IMG/VR virus record: IMGVR_UViG_3300005805_000464
Location: 1 to 24,748 of that record
DNA length: 24,748 bases
Direction: 5' to 3' (one strand)
From: a virus
Taxonomy: Duplodnaviria > Caudoviricetes
Shown: positions 1,393-12,709 of the stretch, one piece after another
Position numbering within the stretch: position 1 is the first letter of the stretch
How the letters are laid out: each line of letters begins with the position of its first letter
Translations under genes and position numbers: made by a program
Notes under the pieces: model-generated
Told to the model about the DNA's origin: nothing
Databases searched by the model: none
What the model saw: the letters and a program-made list of their open reading frames with translations, nothing else

Positions 1393-1625
1393 GCAATTAT
1401 AACCCTTATAATACCCATAATGTAGATTGCTAACAGCCCTGCGTTAACTGCAATCATAGCAGGCTCACGTATCCGTATAGCCCAAATTAGAAACAACACC
1501 GCACCCACGTTAAGCAGGTAAACGTTGTAGGGGTCTATGGCCAAACTGGTAAACAGTGCGCCCACCAATGTAACTACCGTGGCGCTCCACTTGTAAAACT
1601 TGCTGAGCTTATCTTCTGTCATCAT
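1389..1625 (-). CDS. Small three-TM membrane protein
   Basis: 78 aa with three hydrophobic segments; translationally coupled on both sides. Confidence 0.8.
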   Translation of the reverse strand: MMTEDKLSKFYKWSATVVTLVGALFTSLAIDPYNVYLLNVGAVLFLIWAIRIREPAMIAVNAGLLAIYIMGIIRVIIA

Positions 1626-1945
1626 TAGTATTGGTTCAGTGCAGGTGCAAGTTCTGCAATCAGTTCACGTTCTCTAGCATGCGCGGGCTTGCGACCACGC
1701 AGCACTTCAACTATCTCTACCATAAAGTTTTCTGCGCCATAGCTACGAATACTTTTGCAGAGGTTCCAAACCCTATTTTCAGTAACTGCGCGGCGCACAT
1801 GTTTCTGAAAACGCACCTTAACCGCACGTTTGGGAGCGGCACCACACACAGTAATGCCAATGTAGAAATCACCCGTTACCATGTTTTTCAACATGTAAAC
1901 GGCGTGTTTGGTATCTTGTCTACGTCTACGTTTAGCTTTAAGCAT
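1625..1945 (-). CDS. Stand-alone GIY-YIG nuclease
   Basis: AVY-x10-FYIG motif, a conserved Arg (VRFQKH) and Glu (RERELI). Start moved to ATG 1945 because the sigma70 promoter lies inside the longer ORF call. Confidence 0.8.
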   Translation of the reverse strand: MLKAKRRRRQDTKHAVYMLKNMVTGDFYIGITVCGAAPKRAVKVRFQKHVRRAVTENRVWNLCKSIRSYGAENFMVEIVEVLRGRKPAHARERELIAELAPALNQY

Positions 1946-1951
1946 AGTCAT

Positions 1952-1980
1952 ATTATATAGAAAAGGGCATTTTTTGTCAA
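1952..1980 (-). promoter_or_regulatory. Consensus sigma70 promoter
   Basis: TTGACA (1980-1975), 17-nt spacer, TATAAT (1957-1952); perfect consensus. Confidence 0.9.
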
Positions 1981-2020
1981 CCAAAATACTTGACAAATAA
2001 TGCCCCAAAAACTCTATATA

Positions 2021-2033
2021 AATCAATAACTTA
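2021..2033 (+). promoter_or_regulatory. Candidate IHF-binding site
   Basis: AATCAATAACTTA matches WATCAANNNNTTR, about 40 bp upstream of the -35 box. Confidence 0.45.
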
Positions 2034-9834: not shown

Positions 9835-10278
9835 CTAAAATTTCTCTAATCCCAGTGACTCACTGGGAATAGTTTTCAACAGTTTTAAATTTTTGTTAAT
9901 GTGTTTCTTATTTACTACTTCGTCGTGGATGTAATTAAGTATATATTTTCCTTGCTCCACAAACACTAAATTATAATGTTCTTTGGTTGAAGGATCAATA
10001 TATACATTTATTTCTAAATTGGGTCTATGTTTTGTAAGATATAAAGTATAAACTATACCTAAAGCTTTTGCAAGATCACAATAGTAATTTTCGTACAATA
10101 ATTCCCATGGATCGGGCCATTTTTCTATATGATCAGTAGTCAAATAATGGGCAACAAAGGGTGCAAAACTCCATAAATGCTGCGTGGCAATTAAAGCATC
10201 TTCCAAAGTTTTGGTGTTAAGTTCTTGTCTAAAATTTTGCCAATAGCGAAGACGTTCGCTAGGATGTTGTTGCCACAT
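9835..10278 (-). CDS. Conserved hypothetical protein
   Basis: 147-aa ORF with a WPDPWELL...YCDLAKALG motif. Confidence 0.75.
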   Translation of the reverse strand: MWQQHPSERLRYWQNFRQELNTKTLEDALIATQHLWSFAPFVAHYLTTDHIEKWPDPWELLYENYYCDLAKALGIVYTLYLTKHRPNLEINVYIDPSTKEHYNLVFVEQGKYILNYIHDEVVNKKHINKNLKLLKTIPSESLGLEKF

Positions 10279-10287
10279 GCAATTAAG

Positions 10288-10794
10288 TTATAAAGTAGAA
10301 AAGCTATATGTTACGTTCGCATCATATCCGTTTGCCAAACTAACAGCAGAAACCTGCGCCGTAGTATTGCCAACGTTGGTCACTGATAAGTTACAAAGCA
10401 AATTTTCTGTCTCAGTGTATTCGTCGTCATAGCTAAGATTTGTACCGTAATAACTTATTTTCATTGACCCAGTTTTGACTGCAATATTAGTACCAGATAC
10501 ATTTCTTATTATTTGATAATTAAGAAATATGCTGGGAGTATTCGCAGTAAATGCGGCAGAAGCCAAATCAACTGTGGTTCCGTCAGGTACAGTTTCACTA
10601 TATTTTTGCTCTAAATCAAGCTCAGTTAATATACGTGTATTACCTACTTCTGGAGCACCTTCATCAATAGTACCGTTACCAATGTAAAGTTCTTGGCTAT
10701 CAATGCTCCATCCAAGTTCTGCAGAACTTAATTGAGGTAAGTTTTCTTGTAATCCCCGTCTATGTTGAATACGGCTAATTTGCACTACTGCCAT
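10288..10794 (-). CDS. Virion protein with Mtd_N-like (fibre-attachment) N-terminal domain
   Basis: IQHRRG...LSSAELGWSIDSQELYIGNG matches the major-tropism-determinant N-terminal pattern. Confidence 0.75.
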   Translation of the reverse strand: MAVVQISRIQHRRGLQENLPQLSSAELGWSIDSQELYIGNGTIDEGAPEVGNTRILTELDLEQKYSETVPDGTTVDLASAAFTANTPSIFLNYQIIRNVSGTNIAVKTGSMKISYYGTNLSYDDEYTETENLLCNLSVTNVGNTTAQVSAVSLANGYDANVTYSFSTL

Positions 10795-10831
10795 AGTTAC
10801 TTCCCTTTAATTTATTATATTTAGCTTTTTG

Positions 10832-10933
10832 TTATTCTGAGGGCAGTGTCTGAGTATAATATTTTTCTAACCTATCATACCATTTTTGAACCCAAAAATC
10901 AAAATCTTTACCTTCAATTACGAATATTTGACA
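10832..10933 (-). pseudogene. Orphan second copy of the exonuclease C-terminus
   Basis: Translates as CQIFVIEGKDFDFWVQKWYDRLEKYYTQTLPSE*, with no ATG. It aligns without gaps to the exonuclease end YQEFHVVDEEFDYYVNLWWDRVEQYYRNQL* (12/30 identical). Confidence 0.85.
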
Positions 10934-11000
10934 TAAATAAAAGTGTAGTTCACGGGATTGCAGTCCCCAACTACTCTAACACTGTAAAGGAGTGCCAGCA
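10934..11000 (+). promoter_or_regulatory. Late-type promoter motif plus structured leader of the HNH gene
   Basis: TAAATA (10934-10939); stem GTAGTT-CAC-GGGAT-TGCA-GTCCC-C-AACTAC; TCTAACA; RBS AAAGGAG partly inside a CACT/AGTG stem. Confidence 0.7.
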
Positions 11001-11747
11001 ATGATATTTATTGATAACAAATATACCAAGTGGTATTATAGCATCATTAATCGTGCTAAGTCTAGACAATTACCAGAAGAAATTAGAACCCAAACCCATC
11101 ATATAATACCGCAATCATTCTTTAAAAAAATAGTCCGAAAGGGACGGAAAGGATGGTTAGATGGAGACCCAGAGGAGCCCACAAATAAAGTAAGACTAAC
11201 TCTTCGAGAGCATCTAATATGTCATTGGTTATTGACCAAAATGATATCTGGTGATGGGAGATACCGAATGGTGGCGGCGCTAAAGCTAATGATCAATAAT
11301 AACAAAAAATCATCCAGGATGTATGAATATTGTAACCGGCTAATACTGGAATCTGGTAGCCCGCTGAAAGGCAGAAAATTTAATCGTACACCATGGAATA
11401 AAGGAATTCCTATGTCCTCACGATCTAAAGAACTCACATCTACTAATTGTAAATTATCTTATCAAAACGGTCGATCACTTTCTCCCACTGTTTTTACTTC
11501 TGGGCATATCCCACACAATGCCATTGGTAATGAATATTATTTTAGAGACCCAAATGGAAATATTTTCAAAACTGACAATGTGACTCGTTTCTGTAAGCGG
11601 CGAGGATTGTCTCCACAGGCGATGTGTGCCATTGCTAGGAAAGAGCGGGGATATCGTTCTTACAAGGGATGGACTTTGGCAAATCCCACAGAAGCTGTTA
11701 TAGTTGATTTCTATAATACTGTTCAACGCGATCCCACCATAAATTAA
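11001..11747 (+). CDS. Free-standing HNH homing endonuclease with NUMOD-like DNA-binding motifs
   Basis: THHIIPQS...NKVRLTLREHLICHWLL HNH core, PWNKG motif and C-terminal HTH-like YKGW module. ATG 11001 is 8 nt after the RBS. This is the only credible plus-strand gene. Confidence 0.88.
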   Translation: MIFIDNKYTKWYYSIINRAKSRQLPEEIRTQTHHIIPQSFFKKIVRKGRKGWLDGDPEEPTNKVRLTLREHLICHWLLTKMISGDGRYRMVAALKLMINNNKKSSRMYEYCNRLILESGSPLKGRKFNRTPWNKGIPMSSRSKELTSTNCKLSYQNGRSLSPTVFTSGHIPHNAIGNEYYFRDPNGNIFKTDNVTRFCKRRGLSPQAMCAIARKERGYRSYKGWTLANPTEAVIVDFYNTVQRDPTIN

Positions 11748-12384
11748 CATAGTAATCAAACTCTTCATCAACCACGTGGAATTCTTGATACTGAAAATCT
11801 TTACTACACATCATAATTAATCCCGACTTAATGTTGGTGCCAAACATTTGATTATGTGCCTGAGCGTAGGCCGCTAGCTGCAAAAAGTAATCCTCAATCC
11901 ACTCACGTTTCTTGGGCTTGTTAGTTTGTTTAAAATCAAAAATGGTTGGTCTATCCTTCCAAATCCCAATCTGATCGCTGGTTCCGGCATATAACCCACT
12001 ATAAAAAAGAGGTACCTCTATACCCCAAACTTCTGATACATTGGGTGAGAGTCCCTCTGCAATAATAGTATTTGCCATAGTATGGCTTTGTTTGCTATAG
12101 GGATTAGTACCAGGTTCATTTATTCGTCCATTCTTAACATAAAGTTCTAACCATTTATGCATCCTAGTACCTCTACTAGCTGCTTCTGTGGTTATTTGTT
12201 GGGCACGTTCTGCACCCATTCTCTTGCGCCAATTATTAAGAACTGCTTTTGCTTCTTCTGGTTTCGTCGCATCTAGAATTGTGGTGACGCTGGGTACCTT
12301 GGAACCGTCAGGAAGGCAGTAATGTCTTTTGCCATTTACTGTTTGTCTATCGATTTTTTTATAATTGAATTTTTCTATAAGCAT
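11698..12384 (-). CDS. PD-(D/E)XK exonuclease (Cas4/MGME1-like phage exonuclease)
   Basis: PSVTTIL, RGTRMH, IEVPL, YAGTSD, IFDFKQT and YFLQLAAYA motifs; start at ATG 12384. Confidence 0.9.
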   Translation of the reverse strand: MLIEKFNYKKIDRQTVNGKRHYCLPDGSKVPSVTTILDATKPEEAKAVLNNWRKRMGAERAQQITTEAASRGTRMHKWLELYVKNGRINEPGTNPYSKQSHTMANTIIAEGLSPNVSEVWGIEVPLFYSGLYAGTSDQIGIWKDRPTIFDFKQTNKPKKREWIEDYFLQLAAYAQAHNQMFGTNIKSGLIMMCSKDFQYQEFHVVDEEFDYYVNLWWDRVEQYYRNQL

Positions 12385-12385
12385 G

Positions 12386-12709
12386 TTACACCGCAAAACT
12401 TGATCCACAACCACATTGACCAGTAGCATTTGGGTTGCTGATCACAAAGCGAGATTCTGTAATAGATTGCTTATAGTCAATCGTCGCACCATTAAGATAT
12501 TGCATACTAGCAGCATCTACCAATGCAAGTTTGTCACCAATATGAATTTCAAAATCGTCATCGTTACGATTTTCATCTAAAGTAAAACCATATTGCATGC
12601 CGCTGCATCCCCCGCCCTCAATAAAGACACGCATGAACATGTTTTTATTTTCTTCTTCGTCAAGGATAGTTTTTATTTTTTTAATTGCTGATTCAGAAAA
12701 GGTAATCAT
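12386..12709 (-). CDS. erpA: A-type Fe-S cluster carrier (ErpA/IscA/HesB family)
   Basis: GGGCSGMQYGF and C-terminal CGCGSSF motifs. Confidence 0.9.
   Translation of the reverse strand: MITFSESAIKKIKTILDEEENKNMFMRVFIEGGGCSGMQYGFTLDENRNDDDFEIHIGDKLALVDAASMQYLNGATIDYKQSITESRFVISNPNATGQCGCGSSFAV

What the first reader, a model, noticed from the sequence alone, without database searches (positions are those of the whole stretch)
10832..11790. HNH cassette flanked by two diverged copies of the exonuclease C-terminus: an element that appears to replace its target gene's 3' end
Seen: the intergenic gap at 10832-10933 encodes, on the minus strand, CQIFVIEGKDFDFWVQKWYDRLEKYYTQTLPSE*. This aligns gap-free (12/30 identical, many conservative changes) with the exonuclease's last 30 residues, YQEFHVVDEEFDYYVNLWWDRVEQYYRNQL*. 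It has no ATG, and the similarity stops where the HNH promoter motif begins (TGTCAA versus TATCAA at the two junctions). Deleting about 10931-11787 would give an intact in-frame exonuclease with the alternative tail. Established: free-standing homing endonucleases cut conserved neighbouring genes and co-convert flanking sequence. Inference: the cassette entered the exonuclease gene carrying its own cleavage-resistant 3' end and displaced the resident end, achieving intron-free, non-disruptive insertion in antisense orientation. The orphan frame is still open, which suggests a recent event or a switchable tail.
Basis: partly seen in the sequence, partly recalled or inferred. Interest (0 to 1): 0.85.

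Follow-up and report, generated by a model that had tools for sequence, protein, structure and literature searches.

The report
Endonuclease swaps phage exonuclease gene end
A selfish DNA-cutting-enzyme gene has entered a lake phage's exonuclease gene backwards, bringing about 100 foreign codons that keep the gene whole and leaving the original last 30 codons stranded, likely by repair of its own cut; the layout is known from fungal mitochondria, and here a near-identical phage without the insert shows the state before the event.

Summary
In another study, a 252-bp contig matches 10726-10925 (1 difference) and runs straight from the orphan tail into exonuclease codons: the empty allele. The orphan is therefore the resident end.

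Two details are wrong. The joint is 10925/10926, not the TGTCAA/TATCAA match. The incoming tract is longer than the visible duplication: a second contig has 26 changes over 11897-12240, all 18 listed ones at or below 11995. So 10926 to about 11995 came in (promoter, leader, intact HNH, about 100 donor codons) and about 72 resident codons were lost. Excision would not restore the ancestor; a switchable tail is unsupported.

An independent twin exists (L129: same exonuclease family, different nuclease, same direction). Of 119 other nuclease loci, 3 show duplicated gene ends, all abutting the promoter. Likely mechanism: intronless homing repaired homologously on one side only; cleavage is untested. 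Closest known: fungal mitochondrial mORF gene hybrids and T4 one-sided homing. The scan has noted this theme on other DNA several times. New variant of a known kind.

The parts
10832..10925 (-). Stranded resident 3' end of the exonuclease gene (F217 to stop, 30 codons); no start codon
   Evidence: in run X6 this sequence is continuous with exonuclease codons. Its stop lies 37 nt before the next gene, within the 14-68 nt seen in 60 of 71 distinct relatives.
10926..11995 (.). Whole incoming tract: 7 nt, promoter, leader, HNH gene and donor exonuclease 3' part. Left end exact, right end approximate.
   Evidence: Left end: loose end behind 10925. Right end: last listed difference at 11995 in a 356-bp contig covering 11897-12240.
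10933..10939 (+). ATAAATA, late-promoter-like motif for the HNH gene (name by analogy with T4 late promoters, recalled)
   Evidence: TAAATA within 22 nt before the hairpin in 116 of 117 distinct leaders; also precedes several other genes of the window.
10945..10974 (+). Conserved leader hairpin with a covarying inner stem
   Evidence: 43 cells with changes on both sides against 11.9 in shuffles. The outer stem is invariant by search design. No Rfam match.
10980..10994 (+). Small predicted hairpin overlapping the ribosome-binding site (AAGGAG, 10987-10992)
   Evidence: Predicted; not recovered as a consensus helix.
11005..11011 (-). Second ATAAATA pointing outward, written into the first HNH codons
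   Evidence: TATTTA within 62 nt after the hairpin in 109 of 117 leaders, against 3 of 188 control ORF starts (15-nt window).
11001..11747 (+). Free-standing HNH-type homing endonuclease gene, 248 aa, open frame; its last 50 nt overlap the exonuclease end in antisense
   Evidence: phrog_655 homing endonuclease, E 4.8e-26. H33, H34, N62, H71 and H75 are invariant in 14 of 14 aligned sequences. Pfam gives only a weak AHH hit.
11698..11995 (-). Donor-derived 3' part of the exonuclease (codons about 145-243 in the 243-aa numbering), containing the D-F-K motif
   Evidence: The window departs from the family consensus at 10 of 59 conserved columns in 145-216; 2 of 119 homologues depart as much.
11996..12384 (-). 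Resident 5' part of the exonuclease gene (phrog_298; weak PD-(D/E)XK Pfam hit)
   Evidence: In run X5 no difference is listed in 11996-12240 and one contig is identical over 12211-12367.
10288..10794 (-). Downstream neighbour with an Mtd_N domain; directly follows the exonuclease in relatives

Best explanation
A free-standing HNH endonuclease cassette (10926 to about 11995) replaced about 72 codons of the resident exonuclease gene with about 100 foreign codons and left the resident last 30 codons stranded, likely by intronless homing that was repaired homologously on one side only. Shown: the layout, the empty allele, the direction, the left joint 8 nt upstream of TAAATA, the approximate crossover near 11996, and the open hybrid frame. 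Inferred: in a donor phage the HNH gene sat antisense against the exonuclease 3' end under its own promoter. In a mixed infection the enzyme cut the recipient's exonuclease gene, probably between codons 145 and 217, around the conserved catalytic motifs. The 5' broken end invaded the donor gene, copied the donor 3' part, the HNH gene and its promoter, then found no homology and rejoined the resected recipient end illegitimately. The donor allele is predicted to resist the enzyme. The orphan is a dead by-product, open only because the event is recent.
For: 1) Empty allele: the X6 contig matches 10726-10925 with 1 difference and continues into codons reading MCSADFKYQE, in frame with F217 (read by hand). 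2) Sharp break: the X5 contig over 11897-12240 has 26 substitutions and 2 gaps; all 18 listed substitutions and both gaps lie in 11938-11995. 3) The window protein is atypical in 145-216: 10 of 59 conserved columns deviate, 2 of 119 homologues deviate as much. 4) 0 of 71 distinct relatives carry two tails; 60 have the exonuclease directly before the Mtd_N gene. 5) Twin L129: same family (phrog_298), antisense nuclease with 80-nt overlap, stub 7 nt from TAAATA. The 7 cassette-free relative loci (3 distinct proteins) match the orphan at 74-83% and the attached tail at 50-59%. GC3 is 0.22 for the attached tail and 0.19 for the nuclease, against 0.49 for the orphan. 6) 3 of 119 other distinct nuclease loci exceed the null maximum, all with the stub at the promoter. 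7) The HNH motif is intact. 8) Precedent: one-sided illegitimate repair in T4 and distal cleavage by free-standing endonucleases (PMC2988022 passages).
Against: No cleavage data. Each breakpoint rests on one short, low-depth contig (3.3x and 6.7x) from two different runs of one study, and no contig joins both. 8 of the 26 substitutions in the X5 contig were not listed, so their positions are inferred. The donor was not found: best exonuclease identity is about 72% and best HNH about 50-60% over the N-terminal part. Tail identity alone pointed the other way: 81 of 119 homologues are closer to the attached tail and 23 to the orphan (the tail is variable, and the query included part of the attached tail). 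The contrast between 16-144 and 145-216 is borderline (Fisher p = 0.053). GC3 does not separate the two tails in the window (0.30 and 0.21). 116 of 119 other loci show no duplication above the null.
Confidence: 0.8

Rival explanations
1. Same structure and direction, but the nuclease was a passenger: an ordinary break or replication-dependent strand invasion moved a donor block by one homologous and one illegitimate exchange, without HNH cleavage.
For: T4-like recombination systems can make illegitimate exchanges (PMC2993671 passages). No activity data exist. Only 3 of 119 other loci show the scar.
Against: The tract is just long enough to carry the nuclease and its promoter. A second exonuclease locus shows the same geometry with a different nuclease, and both tracts begin at or near the catalytic motifs. 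The HNH motif is intact.
Confidence: 0.13
2. Switchable tail: the cassette excises between the two tail copies and toggles two exonuclease C-termini.
For: An 857-nt deletion is in frame and the orphan frame is open.
Against: The natural cassette-free allele is not the excision product (8 of 30 differences upstream of the joint; dense differences in 11938-11995). The two copies share only short identical runs at DNA level. No recombinase was called among the 15 window proteins scanned. Recency explains the open frame.
Confidence: 0.02
3. Opposite direction or in-place duplication: the attached tail is native, and the orphan came with the HNH or is a diverged target-site duplication.
For: 81 of 119 distant homologues are closer to the attached tail; the orphan deviates at 2 of 9 conserved columns and the attached tail at 0.
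Against: A 99.5%-identical relative has the orphan fused to its exonuclease. 40% amino-acid identity between the copies cannot arise while the flank stays 199/200 identical. L129 gives the same direction.
Confidence: 0.03
4. Assembly chimera of two related phages.
For: The population is mixed: run X5 holds both an identical and a roughly 92% variant of 12211-12367. Run X1 may be the source sample.
Against: A separately assembled 2,440-bp contig spans both joints with 0 differences. Run X2 has a 213-bp contig over 10727-10939 with 0 differences, reaching 14 nt past the left joint (too short to count as a bridge), and a contig over 11711-11995 with 0 differences, carrying the HNH/exonuclease overlap and the donor allele.
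Confidence: 0.02

Closest known systems
Mobile endonuclease ORFs (mORFs) that make gene hybrids in fungal mitochondria: Allomyces macrogynus atp6; Glomus atp6, atp9, cox2, nad3 (PMC3630166, passages read)
   Same: A free-standing endonuclease brings a foreign C-terminal piece that completes the host gene; the native C-terminus is left downstream; the native end matches close relatives.
   Different: Here a phage HNH, antisense, with its own promoter and a 3' overlap. About 72 resident codons are deleted rather than displaced, so the foreign piece is three times the visible duplication. In the Glomus cases the ORF (LAGLIDADG or GIY-YIG) is co-transcribed with the gene.
Intronless homing by free-standing T4 Seg/Mob endonucleases (SegF/gene 56, SegG/gene 32, MobE/nrdB; review PMC2988022, passages and section 17 read)
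   Same: A free-standing nuclease beside a conserved gene, with conversion of that gene to the donor allele over hundreds of bases; hairpin control of the ribosome-binding site and embedded promoters for neighbours are also described.
   Different: Described homing uses homology between close relatives and replaces the allele. Here one side is non-homologous, the donor part is only about 70-75% identical, and a stub remains. 'Duplicat' has 0 occurrences in that review.
[quoted passage not shown]
   Same: Homology on one side, a non-homologous joint with resection on the other; proposed as a route to new sites.
   Different: Laboratory crosses with an intron; this is a natural, intron-free case with the empty allele in view.
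Gene-splitting insertions mobE/nrdA of Aeh1 and mobA/gene 60 of T4 (PMC2988022 section 17)
   Same: A homing endonuclease inside a host gene without splicing.
   Different: Those split the protein into two chains; here one intact hybrid chain is made and the stub is not translatable.

Membership tests
Free-standing HNH homing endonuclease (intronless homing) | HNH catalytic motif in an intact ORF | tested here: met
   phrog_655, E 4.8e-26; HH..N..H...H invariant in 14 of 14. Pfam weak only; no meaningful PDB match.
Free-standing HNH homing endonuclease (intronless homing) | Not inside an intron or intein | tested here: met
   No Rfam match in 10700-12000 at E up to 5; antisense to the host gene, whose frame is complete.
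Free-standing HNH homing endonuclease (intronless homing) | An empty allele exists in close relatives | tested here: met
   X6 contig; one contig at depth 3.3.
Free-standing HNH homing endonuclease (intronless homing) | Co-conversion of the neighbouring gene | tested here: met
   About 300-bp foreign tract with a sharp boundary.
Free-standing HNH homing endonuclease (intronless homing) | Site-specific cleavage of the empty allele and immunity of its own allele | not testable with these tools
   Needs an enzyme assay.
mORF gene-hybrid element (fungal mitochondria) | Foreign C-terminus in frame with the host gene, native C-terminus downstream of the endonuclease | tested here: met
mORF gene-hybrid element (fungal mitochondria) | LAGLIDADG or GIY-YIG ORF co-transcribed with the host gene in an organelle genome | tested here: not met
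   HNH, antisense, own promoter, phage gene context. It works like an mORF but is not one.
Recombinase-driven tail switching or excisable element | Precise excision restores the empty allele through matching sites | tested here: not met
   The empty allele differs from the excision product.

The most novel reading that the evidence does not exclude
A large family of freshwater-phage endonuclease cassettes shares one leader (promoter, hairpin, ribosome-binding site, outward promoter; about 1,200 copies estimated in IMG/VR, no Rfam match). Its promoter edge acts as a preferred non-homologous joint. These cassettes would need homology on one side only and could jump between distant phage lineages, each time grafting a foreign end onto an essential gene and supplying a promoter for the neighbour. 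The two exonuclease cases would be fresh scars of a general route for making hybrid phage proteins.
Probability: 0.3. Interest if true: 0.7.

Novelty: new variant of a known kind. Interest (0 to 1): 0.42.

Why it matters
How free-standing homing endonucleases reach distant genomes without killing the essential genes they cut is usually inferred from laboratory crosses. This locus gives a natural before-and-after pair with both breakpoints, a defined window of about 210 bp for the cut site, and a ready assay. It also shows that the visible duplicated tail understates the foreign DNA threefold, which matters for single-gene phage phylogenies. The principle is known from fungal mitochondria and the scan has noted it in other phages, so the value is a well-mapped test case and an apparently uncatalogued leader, not a new principle.

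Tried and rejected
Tail identity among 119 homologues did not give the direction and leaned the wrong way. GC3 in the window was uninformative. A degenerate pattern for 'leader next to an exonuclease tail' found 0 matches in viral contigs. The one metagenome scan found 3 distant loci (47-63%) and no donor or empty allele. GenBank phages are all below 60% identical. Rfam gave no match for the window region or for 6 leader loci. PDB gave only a spurious repeat match. Seven exonuclease loci with long downstream gaps hold other genes, one a co-oriented GIY-YIG-like ORF, and none a second tail. Two weak 'DUP' flags (L234, L283; about 34%, E about 2-3e-4) match a motif in a downstream gene and were rejected. 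L005-L007 hits are tandem cassettes, not gene-end duplications. Lack of cover over the HNH in runs X5-X8 is not used as evidence. No RNA holder listed. Paper searches for a phage report of this layout found none; the library lacks most subscription papers, and no supplements were read.

Full report
Setting. The window is a single 24,748-base contig. Its gene set looks like that of a large tailed phage: nrdA- and nrdB-like ORFs (named from recall), a DnaB helicase, a Toprim primase and a cell-wall hydrolase. The best holders are lake and freshwater metagenomes of two studies. The exonuclease (11698-12384, minus strand) belongs to phrog_298. The antisense ORF at 11001-11747 matches phrog_655, homing endonuclease, at E 4.8e-26. 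Its HH..N..H...H residues are invariant in 14 of 14 aligned sequences.

Observation. It is the highest-scoring peptide duplication in a whole-window self-comparison that left out the repeat region above 23,900. A 2,440-bp contig of run X1 spans 10188-12627 without a difference. X1 may be the source sample, so this checks the assembly, not independence. Among 84 exonuclease loci (71 distinct proteins), none has a second tail. Sixty have the Mtd_N gene 14-68 nt after the stop, 7 have other genes in between, and 4 gave no Mtd_N hit. The orphan's stop is 37 nt before that gene.

Which tail is resident. Identity to 119 homologues (the best of 8,000 scored, about 70% identical) did not settle it: 81 are closer to the attached tail, 23 to the orphan, 15 tie. 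Contigs of the second study did. In run X6 a 252-bp contig matches 10726-10925 with one difference, then continues for 52 letters unlike the window. The 30 letters shown read, on the minus strand and in frame with F217 of the orphan, MCSADFKYQE (translated by hand). This is an exonuclease gene ending in the orphan tail with no cassette. The left joint is therefore 10925/10926, 8 nt upstream of TAAATA. Those 30 letters differ at 8 positions from window 11783-11812, so the foreign part starts further upstream.

The other breakpoint. In run X5 a 356-bp contig covers 11897-12240 with 26 substitutions and 2 gaps. All 18 listed substitutions and both gaps lie in 11938-11995, and none is listed above. 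The other 8 were not listed; the table omits differences near contig ends, and an overlapping contig is identical from 12211, so I infer they lie in 11897-11927. The crossover is thus near 11996 (codon 145). Independently, the window protein departs from the family consensus at 10 of 59 conserved columns in 145-216, and only 2 of 119 homologues depart as much. In 16-144 it departs at 5 of 82, and 23 of 119 do as much; the contrast is borderline (p = 0.053). Read by hand, the X5 contig has the consensus residue at 151, 153 and 162, and the X6 contig at 210. So about 1,070 bp came in, about 72 resident codons were lost and 30 were stranded. Each breakpoint rests on one low-depth contig, from different runs.

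Independent cases. The leader pattern gave 125 loci, with about 1,200 estimated in IMG/VR. The HNH query gave 80 of 312 loci. After removing duplicates and loci with short flanks, 120 remained, including the window. Flank-against-flank peptide scores above the maximum of 500 mismatched pairs (53) were L129 (169), L008 (87), the window (74) and L063 (70). L129 repeats the window's layout in a 33%-identical exonuclease. Its nuclease is different: no Pfam nuclease family was called, and my reading of its start as GIY-YIG-like is recalled. Its 7 cassette-free relative loci (3 distinct proteins, of 9 loci returned) match the orphan at 74-83% and the attached tail at 50-59%. DNA identity to the closest one drops from about codon 147, upstream of the stub start at 161. 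GC3 agrees. L008 and L063 duplicate the 5' start of a co-oriented baseplate wedge gene and of an exonuclease-family gene; their direction was not tested. In all four the stub lies 1-7 nt from TAAATA by alignment, which can over-extend (3 measured against 8 true in the window). L019 and L020 show sub-threshold stubs of what appear to be the same two genes.

Leader. TAAATA precedes the hairpin in 116 of 117 distinct leaders. A reverse copy follows in 109 of 117, mostly 3-5 nt into the ORF, against 3 of 188 control ORF starts. The inner stem covaries in 42 of the leaders: 43 double changes against 11.9 shuffled. Rfam has no match. Of 63 leader loci, 38 of 55 with a callable upstream neighbour are divergent and 41 of 58 with a callable downstream neighbour are convergent; 24 of those 41 overlap it. 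Antisense abutment on a host gene's 3' end is therefore common in this family, and explains why the donor tail travels with the nuclease.

Mechanism. Most likely intronless homing with one-sided repair (0.8): a cut in the recipient exonuclease, homologous invasion on the 5' side, copying through the donor tail, HNH and promoter, and an illegitimate rejoin to the resected end. Cutting, its site and the immunity of the donor allele are inferred. A passenger model (0.13) cannot be excluded. Switching is contradicted because the natural empty allele is not the excision product.

Comparison with what is known. PMC3630166 (passages) describes the same outcome for mitochondrial mORFs in Allomyces and Glomus. 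PMC2988022 (passages and section 17) describes intronless homing, one-sided illegitimate repair, ribosome-binding-site hairpins and embedded promoters in T4. In passages of PMC10448857, PMC12724721 and PMC2993671 I saw no phage case with a stranded gene end; PMC7487136 passages mention free-standing GIY-YIG genes with atp9 duplications in fungi. The primary papers on Allomyces atp6, SegF, SegG and one-sided homing were seen only as citations. Six searches found no phage report, in a library that lacks most subscription papers; no supplements were read. The scan's own notes list eight similar findings on other genomes. They are unchecked and were not used as support.

Verdict. Real, directionally right, with corrected boundaries. 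New variant of a known kind; interest 0.42.

Noticed in passing
window 10933-11011; loci L085-L209: A conserved leader with no Rfam match (TAAATA, hairpin with covarying inner stem, ribosome-binding site, reverse TAAATA in the first codons) precedes many nuclease-like ORFs with differing N-termini. The reverse motif explains their shared M-x-I-Y, M-Y-L and M-I-F-I starts. It may be an outward promoter, an antisense-RNA source or an operator.
   Followed up: partly
L129 222-2046 (same contig as L293; exonuclease identical in L294): Second exonuclease 3'-end replacement by an antisense nuclease, with a 63-codon orphan; relatives and GC3 show the orphan is resident.
   Followed up: yes
L008 about 360-412 and 1246 onward; L019: Stub of a baseplate wedge gene start upstream of an HNH cassette, with the full gene restarted downstream.
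   Followed up: partly
L063 about 1167-1232 and 2160 onward; L020: Stub of a phrog_107 exonuclease gene start upstream of an HNH, with the full gene downstream.
   Followed up: partly
L005-L007: Two leader-bearing nuclease cassettes in tandem.
   Followed up: no
L236, L247, L282, after the exonuclease stop: A gene of about 320 aa with a CxxxCxxC motif (radical-SAM-like, recalled) sits between the exonuclease and the Mtd_N gene and overlaps the exonuclease stop, changing its last residues.
   Followed up: no
window 12197-12626: Runs X5 and X6 hold contigs with 10-15 differences per 150 bp beside identical ones: a mixed, possibly mosaic phage population.
   Followed up: no
window 1625-2026 (-): A small GIY-YIG protein (PF01541) without the leader; no duplicated flank stood out in the self-comparison.
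   Followed up: partly
window 12386-12709 (-): Fe-S cluster biosynthesis (PF01521) gene directly upstream of the exonuclease.
   Followed up: no
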